From Ruditapes philippinarum (Eukaryota), in assembly GCF_026571515.1 (NCBI RefSeq), contig NW_026855648.1:186001-250000 (forward strand): a stretch of DNA of 64,000 nucleotides, read 5' to 3'. Position numbers: made by a program. Below are positions 21,001-60,000 of this stretch, in pieces; the first letter of the stretch is position 1, and each line of letters begins with the position of its first letter.

Positions 21001-24000
21001 CTAGCCTTTGTAAAACCCAAAAACTTTAGAAATATATTATTGGTTTGAATATACATGTATATAAAGGAATAAAGCACAATCAAATTTGACTATAGTTTAT
21101 TCTTTTTCTACTCCATCTTGCAGGCTGCGACTCATAGCGACAACAAGGTGTATCTATGTTTTTGTATTTTAGGTTTATATTTTAAAGCATAATGTCTGTG
21201 ACAGAGGCAACTTTAGACAATTATTACGCGTTGATAAATGTAATATAGTTCATGAATCAGAAATCAGAAAAAAGTTTGTTTAGCTTATCTACAAAAGACT
21301 TTCTCCGAAATCAAGAATATTTTGTGTTTTCCCCAGCTAATCCGGGGTTACCGTTTACAGCTTAGAAAATAATCGAAACAGGTTGACCGGTAGTGCACCG
21401 TTAAGCTTAAACGGTAAAAAGTTGTTTGTACCTGCCCATCTATTGCACGACGTTATTCGTTATGCTAGAAAAGAGGTTCCATCTGAAAATTTATATTCAA
21501 AATAAAAGAATTCCTATCAGTAAATCCTACAATGAAAGCATACTTGAATTTCAACACTAACGTGAATATCTTCCCTTTTAATTCCGTAAAACATAAAACC
21601 AACTAACTTGTACATATTAAAGCAATTTTATTGCTAAAATATTTTATCTCTTAAAGAAAATCTGTTTGTAAACATTCAAGTATTTTCCGTATCTATTTTC
21701 CGTATGTTTTGTATATTCAACGGCATGATTTTATTGTATTTTCGATCTTTAACATTTGAAATATTGAAACCCGTGATGTTAAACATGAAGACACTGATTT
21801 AAAGTACGTGGCAACTTTTTGACAGCCTCATAACACCTGCTTGTTGTTATTATAAAATAGAGAAAATAAGAATACCCAAAAGTAAGCCCAACACGGCAAA
21901 AATTAAAAGTGTTGCAAGCTTGATTCGACTGAACTTGTTCCTGGACGGTACCGTTAAGTTCAAACTATCCTCCACGCCCCTAGCACCGGTTTAAGCAGAT
22001 TCCAACATTTAAACATGAAATGGTAAGATTTTGAATTTAGAAACATCCGCAGATCGATGTGTTCATACGTAAATGACGTCAAGTCAATACATACGAATGG
22101 CAGTGCAGCATCATTTTTTTTCTGAGTCGCAGTTAAGACGTCACGGGTATGTGATGATAAGTCACATGTTACTATAAATATTAACAAATTTAACAAATAT
22201 TTCAACTTGTTATGAATGTCATATGACCGATTATGAGTTTTGTGACACGGGATCATAATCGGCCCGCTTAACATAAGCGCGTGAAAAATCGGTCAAATGT
22301 CAACGCAGTCTAGGCGGGGTTTATAGTAATGATGACTAGATTTTAAGACAAGTTTAACTGAAACGCAAATAATCCTTTATAAATAATGAATCTCAGGCTG
22401 AAGTCCTTGGGGCCATAATTTATTAAGCAAACCAATATTAACCTGCCGGTCCTACTCTGCCGTGTTTTAACCTCTTATTACGTACAGGTATCAGATTTTG
22501 TAAGGGTTCTTAAATCAGTTTAGAAAAGTCATGACCGGGCATAGATTTATACAATTAAATATTGTTTGCTGGCTATTAACACATACAACGGGTCCATAAT
22601 GATCACTTAATGTGTACTTTCAAAATATTGGAACTGTAATTATTGATTATGATTCCATACCTGAACTGTTCTATAAATGTTTATCAATATTTCAATTTCA
22701 CCATTCTTTCCTTTAACAATGGACTGACAATAATACAGTTCTAGTTTACGTAGCGCGTGATTGAACTTTTTGAACGGCTTTTATTATTTGGTTTATCGTC
22801 AGTCAATGGTTTGAGTATTCAAGAAAAAACACTAGTTATGTTAGCCCTGCAATTATGTTTTAATAATTACACGTAAATATGTTTGTGGAAAAAAACAACA
22901 ACAATAACAGCAGCAACAACAAAATGGAAAACAGTCTCTCACTTATTTGGAATAAATATTTCTTTTGCATTTGCATTGCAAATCTAAGGATATATCTCTA
23001 CAATGCCAGTTTATTACTGAAAATATATTTGAATACATCAGCAATATAAAGTGAATCGGGAATGCAGTTTACCGTTTGTTTACCAAAATGTGAGTTCAAC
23101 ATCTTATTTTGTGAATGAATAAATGACAGACTAAATTTCTTAATCGCTAATTGTTTTTCACGTGCATTTTTGGTACATCTGATAATTATTTATCATAAAA
23201 AGCCGAAGGTGACAGAAACCTGCAAACATTCAATTCCCCTTTAGCTTAAAAGTCATGATGAATATTGTGAAATATACTTGTTGTTAATTTTTATACGATG
23301 ATGATAAAATAAGTCAGTTGAAACAATAAAAATCATGTTTTAAGCTGCGATGAAGACCATAATTACAATGGATTACAAACTATTAATCGTGAACTTTTTA
23401 CTATTTCGACTTGAATACATTCACTGCTCAAATATTACACAGGTCGAAAGTTTATACACAAATTTATTCCAGAATTATAACAGGAAACTTTTTCCATTAA
23501 TAAATCACAACAATTCAATGGAAATAAATTTCACGATAGGAATCGTAAGTATAAATAATTTCGATGAGCTGTCTGGTGAAATAGAACTTACAATGTATTT
23601 CACTTTGCAATGGACTGATGAAAACTTGGTATGGACACCATCTCAATATGGCGGCAAATCGGTGTTGTTAGTAGCTCCAGAAGACATTTGGCGACCACAA
23701 CTTTATCTTCTACAATCATATGACACACTCCAGGAGATAAGTAACAATTCAGTCATGGCACGATTATTCTCGAATGGCCAAGTCATGTGGAATATTGGAA
23801 GTGTTTTGAAAATTGTTTGTTCTGTTGACGTGACGTATTTTCCTTTTGATACCCAGACATGTTTATTAATGGTTTCAGGCTGGGCCTACACAAACGAGGA
23901 AGTGTTGTTTTTCGTGAATGATGCAAAAGTAAGTGAAGATTATTTTTACAACAATAGTCAATGGATACTTCAGTCGGCAACGTCACAGAACTATTATGAT

Positions 24001-57000: not shown

Positions 57001-60000
57001 AAATAATTGAAATAATAATAAATAATGAATCTCGGGCTGAAGAACACGGGGCCATTATCTGATTAGCAAAACAATTTTCACCGGTCCTACTCTGCCGTGT
57101 TTTAACCTCTTATAACGTCTACATGTGAGATTTTGTAAGGGTTCTTAATTAAATCAATTTTGAACATGGCGACACTACCTATTAACGCATTAAAACGGTC
57201 CCTAATGATCACTCAATGTGTGCTCTCAACATTATGTTTATTGATCGTGATTCCATATCTAAACTTTTCTATTAATGTTTATCAATATTACAATTGGACT
57301 GATGGACTAACAATAATTCAGTTCTTGTTTTTGTAGCACGTGATTGAAATATTTGAACAGGTATTATTATATATTCCATAGCCAGTCATTGCTTCTATTG
57401 AGTATCCCAGAAAAAACATTTAATTCTGAAAGCCTCGTGAATTAGTTGGACTTTTTTAATCAATTCACTTAAACATATTTGAAAAAAAGTTAAGAATTCA
57501 GAGGATATATATAACAATGTCATTTTTATTTCTGAAAATATTTTAAAACAACAAAAGTAGTATACGAACTGAATCGGAAATATAGTTAACTGTTAGTTGT
57601 CGACATCTGAATGTATGCCTTGTTTTGTGCATAATAAAATGTCGGACTATACAGTATTTCATATATCGTTCCTTGCTTTACACGTGTATTTTGTGAAAGC
57701 GTTTCCGGATTATAATACATGTGAAAGCGTGACAATGTAACTATGAAAAGATATTCATGATAGATCTAGATCTTTTATCATTTGTCAATGACGTGAACCA
57801 GAACCCGAAGATATAAATTACAGTTTAGCGTCTTCTTGAACAGATAAGTACCAAAGTTTGTCTATCAGACGACCATGGAAGTATTCAAGTTCTACATCAG
57901 TTTTTAATATTTTGGTACATCTGGTTATTATTTATCATACTACGCCAAATGTGACAGAAACCTGTAAATATTTAATTCTCTTTAAACTTAAAAGTCGTTT
58001 GAAATATTGTGAAATATATTTGTTGTACATTTATACGATGGCGATACAATAAGTCAGTTGAAACAATAGATAACATAATTAATATGGATTCCAAGCTATT
58101 AATCGTGACTTTTTTACTTTTCAGCTTGAATACATTCACTGCTCAAATATGACACAGGTCGAAGGTTAATACACAAACTTGTTCCAGAACTATAACAAGA
58201 AACTTTTTCCATTGATGAATCACAACAATTCAATGGAAATAAATGTCACGGTAGGTATTAGAAGTATAAATAATTTCGATGAGCTGTCTGGCGAAATTGA
58301 ACTTACAATGTATTTCACTTTACAATGGACTGATGAAAACTTGATATGGACACCTTCTCAATATGGTGGCAAGTCGGTGTTGTTAGTAGCTTCAGAAGAC
58401 ATTTGGCGACCACAACTTTATCTTCTACAATCATATGACACACTCCAGGAGATAACGAATGTATCGTTGATGGCACGGTTGTTGTCGAATGGCCTCGTCA
58501 TGTGGAATATTGGAAGTGTTTTGAAAAGTGTTTGTTCTGTTGACGTGACGTATTTTCCTTTTGATACCCTGACATGTGTATTAATGGTTTCAGGCTGGGC
58601 TTACACAAACGACGAAGTGTTACTTATCGTCAATAATGCTAAAGTAAATGAAGATTCTTTTTCCAACAATAGTCAATGGATACTTCAGTCGGCAACGTCA
58701 CAGAACAATTATGATATAATATCATCATTTCCCCCGACGATTTTTGTGATACTTAAACTAAAAAGACGAAGTGATTTATTTGTAGTGTACATAATATTTC
58801 CAATGGTGTTCTTTGGCCTTATAAATAATCTTGTGTTTGTTATGCCTGCGAATTCTGGAGAGAGGACATCAGTTGCTATAACAGCATTTTTGTCGTTTAT
58901 TGTTTTTATGCAAATGATAAATTCGATTGTTCCTGAGAGTTCAGAACCTATGGCTTATATATATATTATTATATACTTTTTCTATTGGTTTATAGCTCAC
59001 TCATTTTATTTCTATGTATATGCTCGTTATGTATCTATGACAAGGACACACCAGTTCCTCAGTCCATAGAAAAGATGATTTATTGTTTTCGATGTTGGTA
59101 TTTCAAGAGAAACAAAGACAAAGTAACACCTGTGAGGAAAGCATCCATTTTGTCTGAGCAAGTTGACGTTAAAAGCACGAACGAAAAGTTATCATTCAGT
59201 CAAAATGATGAGGATTCTCCTTTAATGACTTGGGTAACGGTTGGTAAGACATTTGATTCCTGCTGCTATGTTCTTTTGTTGATGACATATTTGGCGGTGA
59301 CCATTCACACATTCGTAAAATTGTATTTTAACTACAGTTGCTGAATATTTTTACTTACATTGATATGAAATGTTCTGACACAGTTACTCGATGCGGTAAT
59401 TTCTCTATATGCGTATTATAAGACATAACAATGAAATTCACATTTCTTTGTAATAATGATAATATATAATTATGGCAAACAAATTTATACAAATGTATAT
59501 CTTAAAATGTTTCTTGTGTAAAACGTCAAATTTCAAAATGAAAATGTGAAAAAGCGATGTAAATAAAACTAGATATGTGAAATGATTGTATTTGTTTTTT
59601 TTTTCTTAAATATATAGTGCTTAATATAATGTGTTTAAGAAGTTTAGATGTTTCATAGACATTACATTTTCGTGTTGTTTTCATAAATGAAAATTATGTA
59701 ACAAGAAAGATATATTATACCAGTATACAGATAAAATATTTTCAACGTCAATCTTGTGTTAACATAAATTTACACAGGAACAATATGCAAATGGAGAAGA
59801 GAAATTTGTCAAATGGAAAGCTCGAGGATTCTCAAAATGTTTTAACTATTTACAATAATGATACGAACGAATGACACTAAATTGTATCCAACGTCAAACC
59901 CATAAGGCATGTCTTTTTTCTCATGCCCTTATAATTTATCTTGTCCCCGAAGGAAAAGTCAAGCTAAATGTCAGAGCTGAAATCATTTATTTAAAACAAT

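What the first reader, a model, noticed from the sequence alone, without database searches (positions are those of the whole stretch)
23580..58670. Patchwork exchange of ligand-binding loops among A paralogs (gene conversion or recombination)
Seen: the groupings are incompatible along the gene. In loop D, genes 3+9 have YFTLQWTDE (codon gat) while genes 5+7 have (Y/H)FNFQWIDE (codon gac), so a synonymous site tracks with the block. In loop F, genes 3+7 have NDAKVSEDYF while genes 5+9 have N(S/N)AKVNEDSF. At the N-terminus, 3+7 have VESL..NYNRK while 5+9 have VEG..NYNKK. Around loop E, gene 3 (ISNNSV..GQV) differs from 5, 7 and 9 (ITNVSL..GLV). M1-M3 is nearly invariant. Inference: segmental exchange shuffles complementary-face loops, and pseudogene 9 may act as a donor.
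Basis: partly seen in the sequence, partly recalled or inferred. Interest (0 to 1): 0.68.

Follow-up and report, generated by a model that had tools for sequence, protein, structure and literature searches.

The report
Gene conversion among tandem receptor paralogs
Four neighbouring copies of an intronless acetylcholine-receptor-like gene show one clear short stretch copied from one copy into another, covering three ligand-binding loops, which is the ordinary behaviour of tandem gene arrays rather than a special loop-shuffling system.

Summary
The genes are single-ORF nicotinic-receptor-like Cys-loop subunits in an array of about 11-kb A(+)/B(-) units.

The "incompatible groupings" are weaker than described. 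Only 24 sites are informative: 16 give 3+7|5+9, 5 give 3+9|5+7, 3 give 3+5|7+9. A simulation without recombination expects 15.1, 3.1 and 3.5, and PHI on the four genes gives p=0.34. The N-terminus and loop F groupings are the same split, matching the flanks, where A5 and A9 are sisters. Only the loop D cluster is unusual: three sites in 17 bp, P about 0.002-0.009.

Exchange is nevertheless real. In 23597-23814 (A7 47100-47317), covering loops D, A and E, A5 and A7 differ at 4 of 218 sites against 133 of 1027 elsewhere. dS there is 0.046 against 0.45-0.54 at the gene ends.

The array also holds a hybrid unit, a truncated gene relic, and B genes more alike than their flanks. Nothing shows pseudogene A9 as donor. 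This is ordinary interlocus gene conversion. Reads were not available.

The parts
23368..24618 (+). A3: intact single-ORF nAChR-like subunit gene. The conserved ATG is at 23368, and an upstream in-frame ATG lies at 23350.
   Evidence: ORF. Pfam PF02931 (2.4e-45) and PF02932. Best PDB match is the Torpedo nAChR beta chain, 1.1e-43.
36129..37388 (+). A5: intact paralog, the young sister of A9. Probable donor of the conversion tract.
   Evidence: Its flanks, 35098-40294, match 57051-62370 at 88.9%.
46871..48130 (+). A7: intact paralog and the most divergent copy (85 private sites). The loop B Trp is replaced by Arg. Probable acceptor of the conversion tract.
   Evidence: dS to the other copies is 0.45-0.59 at both gene ends.
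58084..59344 (+). A9: pseudogene copy, with a 1-bp deletion after 58118, a TAA at 58167-58169 and 2 extra bases at 58956-58957.
   Evidence: Alignments. Two ORF pieces in different frames.
23597..23814 (+). Conversion tract in A3 coordinates, encoding beta2 (loop D) through loop A to beta6 (loop E). Here A3 is the outlier, with 21 of 218 differences to each other copy.
36358..36575 (+). The same tract in A5, the inferred donor.
   Evidence: A5-A7 differ at 4 of 218 sites here against 133 of 1027 outside. Coordinates.
47100..47317 (+). The same tract in A7, the inferred acceptor.
   Evidence: A7 has 2 private differences here (23675 and 23722 in A3 coordinates). The segment tree is (3,((5,7)73,9)82).
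23603..23619 (+). Loop D patch in A3. The equivalents are A5 36364-36380, A7 47106-47122 and A9 58318-58334. Three 39|57 sites plus one three-state site lie within 17 bp.
23741..23754 (+). A3-private cluster in loop E (ISNNSV versus ITNVSL): 9 differences in 14 bp, with no donor in the window.
   Evidence: The search with up to 3 mismatches found only the site itself, 1 match.
30776..32110 (-). B4: partner-type nAChR-like gene of the repeat unit.
   Evidence: B4-B6 are 93.3% identical. dS values.
41412..42749 (-). B6: its gene and flanks (40303-44253) are sister to the B4 unit (28873-33873), not to the B10 unit.
63391..64000 (-). B10, cut by the window end. Its coding sequence is much closer to B4 and B6 than its flank is.
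   Evidence: dS is 0.058 to B4 and 0.106 to B6, against flank K of 0.24.
52846..54153 (-). G8: A-like pseudogene (about 70% identity), used as the outgroup. It has +1 at 53373, -1 near 53254 and an in-frame stop at 53359-53361.
33880..34222 (+). Truncated relic of an A7-type gene: the upstream region plus signal-peptide codons, after which homology ends.
   Evidence: 84.7% identity to 46595-46945. Alignment and translation MNMECKLLIV...HC*.
40294..40303 (.). Junction inside the A5/B6 unit. To its left the unit is sister to the A9 unit, to its right it is sister to the B4 unit.

Best explanation
The four A genes belong to a young tandem array of intronless nicotinic-receptor-like (Cys-loop) subunit genes. 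The array was built by repeated segmental duplication and unequal recombination of a unit of about 11 kb, with an A gene on the + strand and a B gene on the - strand.

The backbone history is (((A5,A9),A3),A7). On top of it, a few non-reciprocal exchanges between copies (interlocus gene conversion) have occurred.

The clearest event copied about 218 bp from the A5 lineage into A7, after A5 and A9 had separated. It covers A5 36358-36575 and A7 47100-47317, encoding loop D, loop A and loop E. As a result A7 now combines its own N-terminus, loop B, loop F, loop C, intracellular loop and M4 with A5's D/A/E block.

The middle of A7 (pre-M1 to M3) also looks homogenised by older exchange or by constraint.

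The loop D 3+9 versus 5+7 pattern lies at the 5' edge of this tract. It needs either a second micro-exchange or four clustered changes in the A5 lineage before the copy into A7.

What is shown: the divergence pattern, the discordant segment trees and the mosaic array. What is inferred: the mechanism (double-strand-break repair using a paralog as template), the direction and the number of events.
For: Family:
- 7 of 7 translated genes match PF02931 and 6 of 7 match PF02932.
- The best solved relatives are nAChR chains.

Backbone:
- A5 and A9 flanks are 81-99% identical per 100-column window over most of the flanks, while A3 and A7 flanks are mostly below 60%.
- Flank JC distances are 0.058-0.126 for A5/A9, 0.15-0.32 for A3 versus A5/A9, and 0.34 for A7.
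- 16 of 24 informative sites support 37|59.

Tract:
- A5-A7 differ at 4 of 218 sites in 23597-23814 against 133 of 1027 outside.
- The tract is not specially constrained: A5-G8 differ at 82 of 218 against 329 of 1027, and A3-A5 at 21 of 218 against 70 of 1027. Fisher p is 1.3e-7 relative to G8 (a post hoc interval).
- In a scan with permutation stratified by codon position and outgroup conservation, 0 of 300 permutations reached the observed value, and the best window was 23598-23813.
- A5-A7 dS across five segments is 0.45, 0.046, 0.26, 0.18 and 0.54.
- In the 3SEQ-style walk, 24 triplet tests were run. A5 between A3 and A7 over 23603-23781 gave p=5e-5, and A9 likewise gave 1.5e-4.
- In the GENECONV-style run test over 6 pairs, A5-A7 gave p=2e-4 and A7-A9 p=0.003, while the other four gave 0.25-0.86.
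- Segment trees with 200 bootstraps give the tract as (3,((5,7)73,9)82) and the 3' end as ((3,(5,9)92)95,7). The A7 branch is 0.015 in the tract against 0.13-0.14 at the ends.
- Separate trees per segment fit best by AICc: 8086.9, against 8100.6 for one topology with free branch lengths and 8162.2 for a single model.
- PHI with the outgroup, over 89 sites, gave p=0.006.

Direction: in the tract A7 is 11 of 218 from A9 and 4 of 218 from A5, whereas outside it is 141 of 1027 from A9. A7 therefore carries 5/9-type sequence.

Array-level recombination:
- A hybrid unit has its junction at about 40294-40303.
- A truncated A7-type 5' relic lies at 33880-34222.
- B4-B10 synonymous differences are 7 of 126 against 104 of 503 mismatches in the flank, p=2e-5.
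Against: - PHI on the four A genes alone is not significant: 24 sites, p=0.34.
- The numbers of conflicting informative sites (5 and 3) are what a no-recombination simulation gives, with means of 3.1 and 3.5.
- With strictly synonymous columns only (70 sites), the walk test is not significant. The best of 24 tests gave p=0.056, and A5 between A3 and A7 gave p=0.089. The run test for A5-A7 gave p=0.27. With third positions (111 sites) it gave p=0.011.
- Part of the walk and run signal comes from the A3-private cluster of 9 changes in 14 bp. That cluster makes A5 equal A7 trivially at those sites. With the cluster removed, the regional contrast is still p=7e-4.
- The tract limits and the four segments were chosen after looking at the data. 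BIC prefers the single-tree model, 8223.8 against 8330.0.
- The outgroup G8 is saturated at synonymous sites (dS above 2), so rooting and polarisation are weak.
- The assembly was not checked against reads.
Confidence: 0.7

Rival explanations
1. There was no exchange. The pattern arises from ordinary divergence on one tree, with uneven rates. A3 had a burst of changes in loop E, A7 happened to change little in the same stretch, and the few conflicting sites in loop D are parallel substitutions at a fast or selected ligand-contact strand.
For: The counts of conflicting sites match a no-recombination simulation. PHI on four taxa gave p=0.34. The tests on synonymous sites alone are not significant. 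BIC prefers one tree. Three of the four loop D changes are nonsynonymous.
Against: A5-A7 differ at 4 of 218 sites against 133 of 1027, in a stretch where the outgroup and A3 are at least as divergent as elsewhere. dS is about tenfold lower there, 2.0 of 45 synonymous sites against about 60 of 216, p=4e-4 post hoc. A7 nests inside the 5/9 pair in the tract with bootstrap support of 82 and 73. A synonymous site (23619) travels with the loop D block. Three 39|57 sites falling within 17 bp has P=0.002 in the simulation.
Confidence: 0.15
2. The mosaics are assembly artefacts. Reads from near-identical paralogs or from two haplotypes were merged into chimeric consensus copies.
For: Tandem arrays are hard to assemble, and no reads were available to check.
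Against: The copies differ by 6-12% over the gene (73 to 155 differences in 1249 columns) and have largely different flanks. That makes collapse unlikely. The window has no N. The tract still carries 4 A5-A7 differences and 2 A7-private sites, as expected of an old event and not of a pasted read. Discordance is also seen at the kilobase scale in the flanks.
Confidence: 0.08
3. There is a selected diversity-generating process. Paralogs, including pseudogene A9, serve as a template library from which complementary-face loops are repeatedly copied into working genes to create new binding sites.
For: The converted block does carry loops D and E, so A7 now has a new combination of complementary-face loops. 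A pseudogene copy sits in the array. Loop D of A3 equals that of A9 except at one synonymous site.
Against: Only one clear tract and one micro-patch were found among four genes. The tract also carries loop A and framework strands and is not bounded by loops. Only 2 sites show a derived state shared by A3 and A9 alone. The A3/A9 loop D state can be plain retention. There is no excess of nonsynonymous change in any lineage: N/S is 1.33-1.43 and pairwise dN/dS is 0.26-0.30. The B genes show homogenisation, the opposite of diversification.
Confidence: 0.04

Closest known systems
Interlocus (ectopic) gene conversion in tandem gene arrays, as described for many families
   Same: A short internal tract is almost identical between two paralogs whose ends and flanks are much more divergent. 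Tree discordance runs along the gene. The array shows unequal-recombination scars: a hybrid unit and a truncated relic. This is what one search's listed papers on paralog conversion describe in their titles and abstracts, for example PMC3966223, PMC3728101 and PMC2077338. I saw only the search listing for these.
   Different: The gene family differs: Cys-loop receptor subunits of an unidentified AT-rich eukaryote. Nothing about the mechanism looks different.
Intronless, tandemly arrayed nAChR gene expansions of molluscs and other lophotrochozoans (Jiao et al. 2019, PMC6896357)
   Same: Single-ORF nAChR-like genes sit in a tandem array together with pseudogenised copies. The paper describes retroposition followed by stepwise tandem duplication, with arrays of up to 12 genes (passages read).
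   Different: The source organism of this window is unknown, so membership of that expansion is an inference. The paper's main text contains 0 occurrences of 'gene conversion' and 0 of 'recombination', so exchange between array members is not treated there.
Cephalopod chemotactile receptors (nAChR-derived, intronless, in tandem clusters)
   Same: They are nAChR-like subunits without the acetylcholine-binding signature, intronless, clustered, and variable in the binding pocket (passages of the review PMC11526382).
   Different: No solved chemotactile receptor chain appears among the best 60 of 306 PDB matches of A3. The top hits are Torpedo and vertebrate nAChR chains. So there is no sign that these genes are chemotactile receptors. 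The ligand is unknown.

Membership tests
Cys-loop (pentameric ligand-gated) receptor subunit, nicotinic branch | An extracellular ligand-binding domain followed by the transmembrane channel domain | tested here: met
   PF02931 with E of 1.7e-42 to 2.4e-45, and PF02932, in A3, A5 and A7. The alignment to Torpedo alpha runs from residue 7 to 374.
Cys-loop (pentameric ligand-gated) receptor subunit, nicotinic branch | The signature disulphide loop, C-x13-C | tested here: met
   CSVDVTYFPFDTQTC is present in the A3, A5 and A7 translations. The spacing was counted from the sequence.
Alpha-type, acetylcholine-binding nAChR subunit | A vicinal Cys-Cys in loop C and the aromatic box (Tyr in loop A, Trp in loop B, Tyr residues in loop C) | tested here: not met
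   In the alignment to Torpedo alpha, the CC pair aligns to S and F, the loop C Tyr residues to I and F, and the loop A Tyr to L. Only the loop B Trp is kept, and it is Arg in A7. The residue roles are recalled from the literature.
Interlocus gene conversion | An internal tract of unusually low divergence between two paralogs, bounded on both sides by much higher divergence | tested here: met
   A5-A7 differ at 4 of 218 sites against 133 of 1027. In the stratified scan, 0 of 300 permutations reached the observed value. Difference positions are listed.
Interlocus gene conversion | Tree discordance between the tract and the rest of the gene and its flanks | tested here: met
   Bootstrap support is moderate: 73 and 82 in the tract, 92 and 95 at the 3' end. 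AICc favours separate trees but BIC does not. PHI on four taxa gave p=0.34, and with the outgroup p=0.006.
Interlocus gene conversion | Synonymous sites are homogenised too, which would rule out protein-level selection as the cause | tested here: inconclusive
   dS is 0.046 against 0.45-0.54, with Fisher p=4e-4 post hoc. Permutation tests on synonymous columns only are not significant, at p=0.089 and 0.27. Third positions gave p=0.011.
Interlocus gene conversion | Non-reciprocal transfer with a known donor and acceptor | not testable with these tools
   The direction A5 to A7 is inferred from A7 nesting within the 5/9 group. Proving it needs outgroup species or population data.
Lophotrochozoan intronless nAChR expansion | Intronless genes in tandem arrays | tested here: met
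   Single ORFs run from the signal peptide to M4. Ten family members or remnants lie within 64 kb.
Lophotrochozoan intronless nAChR expansion | The source organism is a mollusc, an annelid or a relative | not testable with these tools
Only the composition is known: 31% G+C and no N.

The most novel reading that the evidence does not exclude
In this expanded receptor family, exchange between array members, possibly including dead copies, is a recurrent and selected way of recombining the complementary-face loops D, E and F into new binding sites. The tandem array would then work as a cassette library for ligand specificity, comparable in logic to templated diversification in immune or antigen gene families.
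Probability: 0.05. Interest if true: 0.6.

Novelty: new member of a known kind. Interest (0 to 1): 0.27.

Why it matters
It matters on three counts.

- **Annotation and phylogeny.** Trees of these expanded receptor genes built from whole coding sequences will mix histories. Here the full-length tree places A7 with A5/A9 at only 56% support, while the gene ends and the flanks make A7 the outlier. Duplication dates taken from dS will also be too young inside converted tracts.
- **Function.** A7 carries a natural chimera of binding loops. D, A and E come from A5, and B, F and C are its own, with the loop B Trp lost. That makes it a ready-made test of which loops set ligand preference.
- **The field.** The main paper on these expansions does not mention conversion in its main text, so a genome-wide look would be a modest but useful addition.

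It does not point to a new mechanism.

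Tried and rejected
- **PHI on the four A genes.** 24 sites, p=0.34, so this test gives no support.
- **Tests restricted to synonymous columns.** The walk and run tests were not significant.
- **The loop D patch as a recombinant in the walk test.** A3 between A5 and A9 over 23587-23619 gave p=0.97, so this test gives it no support on its own.
- **A donor for A3's loop E cluster.** A 24-base pattern with up to 3 mismatches matched only itself in the window.
- **B genes as donors of the FNF motif in A5 and A7.** All four B genes examined encode FNF, but their DNA around it is too different to call a tract. 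I left this idea as a remark only.
- **Polarising loop D with G8.** The result was mixed: 23603 favours A5/A7 as the older state, 23619 favours A3/A9, and 23615 is uninformative. G8 is saturated, so no direction is claimed for loop D.
- **A3-A5 exchange in 23949-24410.** The pair differ at 16 of 462 sites there against 75 of 787 outside. The stratified scan gave only p=0.056 for A3-A5, and A9's own changes explain part of the pattern, so I do not claim it.
- **Relaxed constraint on pseudogene A9.** Its private N/S is 19 to 14, the same as in the intact copies.
- **Not run.**
  - Structure prediction, fold search, complex prediction and the protein atlas were skipped: they return no coordinates for mapping sites, and the family was already clear.
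  - Supplements of PMC6896357 could not be seen.
- **Spliced or joined models.** None was needed or built, since all genes are single ORFs. The two pseudogenes were compared as they stand, and codons with gaps or stops were skipped.
- **Human origin.** I do not take the contig for human: it has 31% G+C and an intronless receptor array.

Full report
**What the window holds.** The window is 64,000 bases with no N and 31% G+C. From about 13.5 kb onward it holds ten members or remnants of one gene family, each readable as a single open frame.

- A type, + strand: A3 (23368-24618), A5 (36129-37388), A7 (46871-48130) and A9 (58084-59344).
- B type: 13590-14867 (+), 17408-18838 (+), 30776-32110 (-), 41412-42749 (-) and 63391-64000 (-, cut by the window end).
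- One A-like copy of about 70% identity, G8, at 52846-54153 (-).

All seven translations submitted match the neurotransmitter-gated channel ligand-binding domain, and six of seven match the channel domain. B2, scanned, matches both domains as well. The best solved relatives are nicotinic receptor chains: 306 PDB sequences match at E<=0.001, and the top hit is Torpedo beta at 1.1e-43.

The Cys-loop C-x13-C is present. The loop C Cys pair and most aromatic-box residues are not (alignment; the residue roles are recalled). So these are non-alpha-like subunits of unknown ligand.

A9 is a pseudogene, with a 1-bp deletion after 58118, a TAA at 58167-58169 and 2 extra bases at 58956-58957. G8 is one too, with +1 at 53373, -1 near 53254 and a stop at 53359-53361.

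I do not take the contig for human.

**The observation.** The Asp codon in loop D is GAT, GAC, GAC, GAT in A3, A5, A7 and A9. By alignment to Torpedo alpha, the variable loop D residues fall at the positions equivalent to 55, 57, 58 and 61 of the beta2 strand. The ITNVSL/ISNNSV stretch is in the beta5-beta6 (loop E) region, and NDAKVSEDYF is in the beta8-beta9 (loop F) region. The loop names are therefore apt; the loop definitions themselves are recalled. M1-M3 is nearly invariant in protein, with 1-7 nonsynonymous differences per pair.

**Are the groupings more than chance?**

- The four genes align without ambiguity. The only indels are those of A9.
- Of 211 variable sites in 23368-24612, only 24 are informative: 16 for 3+7|5+9, 5 for 3+9|5+7 and 3 for 3+5|7+9.
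'Gene 3 alone' at loop E is not a conflict of topology.
- I simulated 1000 alignments on the single best tree with the fitted HKY+G model. The mean counts were 15.1, 3.1 and 3.5. Five or more 3+9|5+7 sites occurred in 18.5% of runs.
- PHI on the four genes gave p=0.34.
- So the number of conflicts is what homoplasy gives. What stands out is that three of the five 3+9|5+7 sites (23603, 23615, 23619), plus a three-state site (23607), lie within 17 bp. The probability is P=0.0085 and 0.0039 by permutation and 0.002 in the simulation. These are post hoc figures and would be larger if loop D is a local hot spot.

**The backbone history.**

- Flanks show that A5 and A9 are a young pair. 35098-40294 matches 57051-62370 at 88.9%, with JC distances of 0.058-0.126.
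- A3's flanks align to theirs at 0.15-0.32.
- A7's flanks align only in islands, at about 0.34.
- This gives (((A5,A9),A3),A7), in line with the 16 majority sites and with whole-gene dS: 0.14 for A5-A9, 0.19 for A3-A5/A9 and 0.29-0.31 for A7.

**The real exchange signal.** A7 is the outlier at both gene ends, with dS to the others of 0.45-0.59 in 23368-23600 and 0.51-0.54 in 24301-24612. In 23601-23810, however, its dS to A5 is 0.046.

- A5 and A7 differ at 4 of 218 sites in 23597-23814 and at 133 of 1027 elsewhere.
- The stretch is not a cold spot. A5 versus G8 is 82 of 218 against 329 of 1027, and A3 versus A5 is 21 of 218 against 70 of 1027.
- A scan for the best low-divergence window, with permutation stratified by codon position and outgroup conservation, picked 23598-23813. 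None of 300 permutations matched it.
- A 3SEQ-style walk over 24 triplets gave p=5e-5 for A5 between A3 and A7 (23603-23781) and 1.5e-4 for A9.
- A GENECONV-style run test over 6 pairs gave 2e-4 for A5-A7 and 0.003 for A7-A9. The other four pairs were not significant.
- The segment trees differ. The tract gives (3,((5,7)73,9)82) with an A7 branch of 0.015. The 3' end gives ((3,(5,9)92)95,7) with an A7 branch of 0.13.
- Separate trees for four segments give the best AICc: 8086.9, against 8100.6 for one topology with free branch lengths.
- In the tract A7 is nearer to A5 (4 differences) than A5 is to A9 (9 differences). The event therefore followed the A5/A9 duplication, and A7 carries 5/9-type sequence. 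I infer the direction as A5 to A7.

**Qualifications.**

- With strictly synonymous columns only (70 sites), neither test is significant, at p=0.089 and 0.27. Third positions gave 0.011.
- Part of the walk and run signal comes from a cluster of 9 A3-private changes in 14 bp (23741-23754). Without it the regional contrast is still p=7e-4.
- The intervals were chosen after seeing the data.
- BIC prefers a single tree.
- G8 is saturated at synonymous sites, so rooting is weak.

**Loop D.** The patch sits at the 5' edge of the tract. If A5 gave the tract to A7, there are two ways to get the pattern. Either the A5 lineage first acquired four changes within 17 bp (three nonsynonymous and one synonymous), or A9 was later overwritten by an A3-type stretch of at most 45 bp. 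In the second case A3 and A9 still differ at 23607. Alternatively the FNF state came from the original A7, by patchy repair in the same event.

All four B genes examined encode FNF at this place and G8 encodes FYM. Polarisation by G8 is mixed. I therefore cannot say which copy changed. Only 2 sites have a derived state shared by A3 and A9 alone, so nothing specifically supports the pseudogene as donor.

**The array as a whole.**

- The unit holding A5 and B6 is a hybrid. To the left of about 40294 it is sister to the A9 unit. To the right of about 40303 (B6 and its flanks) it is sister to the B4 unit, with 3' flank K of 0.085 against 0.24 to the B10 unit.
- Between B4 and A5 lies a truncated relic of an A7-type gene at 33880-34222. 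It has the upstream region and the signal-peptide codons, after which homology ends.
- B10's coding sequence is far closer to B4 than the adjoining flank is: 7 of 126 synonymous differences (dS 0.058) against 104 of 503 flank mismatches, p=2e-5.
- So recombination between units has acted at several scales, as expected for a tandem array.

**Selection.** Pairwise dN/dS among the four A genes is 0.26-0.30. Private nonsynonymous-to-synonymous counts are 20:15, 11:8, 50:35 and 19:14 for A3, A5, A7 and A9. There is no sign of diversifying selection, and none of relaxed constraint in A9. With four sequences, site models have no power, and I did not run them.

**Comparison with what is known.** Intronless nAChR genes in tandem arrays, with many inactive copies, are described for molluscs and other lophotrochozoans (PMC6896357, passages read). 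That paper's main text has no occurrence of 'gene conversion' or 'recombination', and I could not see its supplements. Cephalopod chemotactile receptors are another intronless, clustered nAChR-derived family (PMC11526382, passages). No such chain is among the best 60 PDB matches.

Gene conversion among tandem paralogs is a textbook process. One search lists several studies of it, but none in its top 12 concerns Cys-loop receptors, and that was a listing only. My searches therefore found no report of conversion within these receptor arrays. That is a statement about those three searches, not about the whole literature.

**Verdict.** There is real but ordinary interlocus gene conversion, chiefly one tract of about 218 bp that moved loops D, A and E from the A5 lineage into A7, inside an array shaped by unequal recombination. 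The source organism, the read support and the direction at loop D remain open.

Noticed in passing
52846-54153 (-): G8 is an A-like copy of about 70% identity. It sits where the other units carry a B gene. It is a pseudogene, with a +1 frameshift at 53373, a -1 frameshift near 53254 and an in-frame stop at 53359-53361 between them. Its M2 region is much closer to the A genes than the rest of it is.
   Followed up: partly
33880-34222: A truncated relic of an A7-type gene: about 260 bp of upstream sequence plus signal-peptide codons (MNMECKLLIV...HC then a stop). It is 84.7% identical to 46595-46945, after which homology ends abruptly. This is a rearrangement scar inside an A gene.
   Followed up: yes
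about 40294-40303: A junction where the A5/B6 unit switches from being sister to the A9 unit to being sister to the B4 unit. This is the signature of unequal recombination between units.
   Followed up: yes
63391-64000 (-) and 62777-63320: B10's coding sequence has dS of 0.058 to B4 and 0.106 to B6, but its adjoining 3' flank has K of 0.24 to both. The B genes therefore appear homogenised as well.
   Followed up: partly
A7, codon 172 (about 47384-47386): In A7 the conserved loop B tryptophan (VSGWAYT in A3, A5 and A9) is arginine (VSGRSYT). The copy is otherwise intact.
   Followed up: no
23741-23754: A3 differs from A5, A7 and A9 at 9 positions within 14 bp (ISNNSV versus ITNVSL). No other place in the window matches this stretch with up to 3 mismatches. 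It may be a multi-base mutation or a copy from a donor outside the window.
   Followed up: partly
29685-30705 and 44253-46595: Extra sequence relative to the sister units. About 1 kb lies directly downstream of B4's stop, and about 2.3 kb lies between the B6 upstream region and the A7 upstream region. They are probably insertions.
   Followed up: no
58084-59344: Pseudogene A9 has the same ratio of private nonsynonymous to synonymous changes (19:14) as the intact copies. Its inactivation therefore looks recent.
   Followed up: partly
13590-14867 (+) and 17408-18838 (+): Two further B-type nAChR-like genes, in the same orientation and more distant: about 66-72% DNA identity to B4 and B6, with dS above 2. 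They lie upstream of the A/B repeat units.
   Followed up: no
10323-10985 (-): An ORF with weak matches to the retroelement integrase zinc-binding and core domains (E of 5.8e-5 and 4.8e-6, both below Pfam's cut-offs). It is probably a decayed retrotransposon.
   Followed up: no
426-919, 3324-4438 and 7186-7645: Three tandem repeats: a 23-bp unit in 21.5 copies, a 162-bp unit in 6.9 copies and a 164-bp unit in 2.8 copies.
   Followed up: no
23368-64000: A and B genes are duplicated together as convergent and divergent pairs (A on +, B on -). That would fit partner subunits sharing regulation. No binding or co-expression test was done.
   Followed up: no
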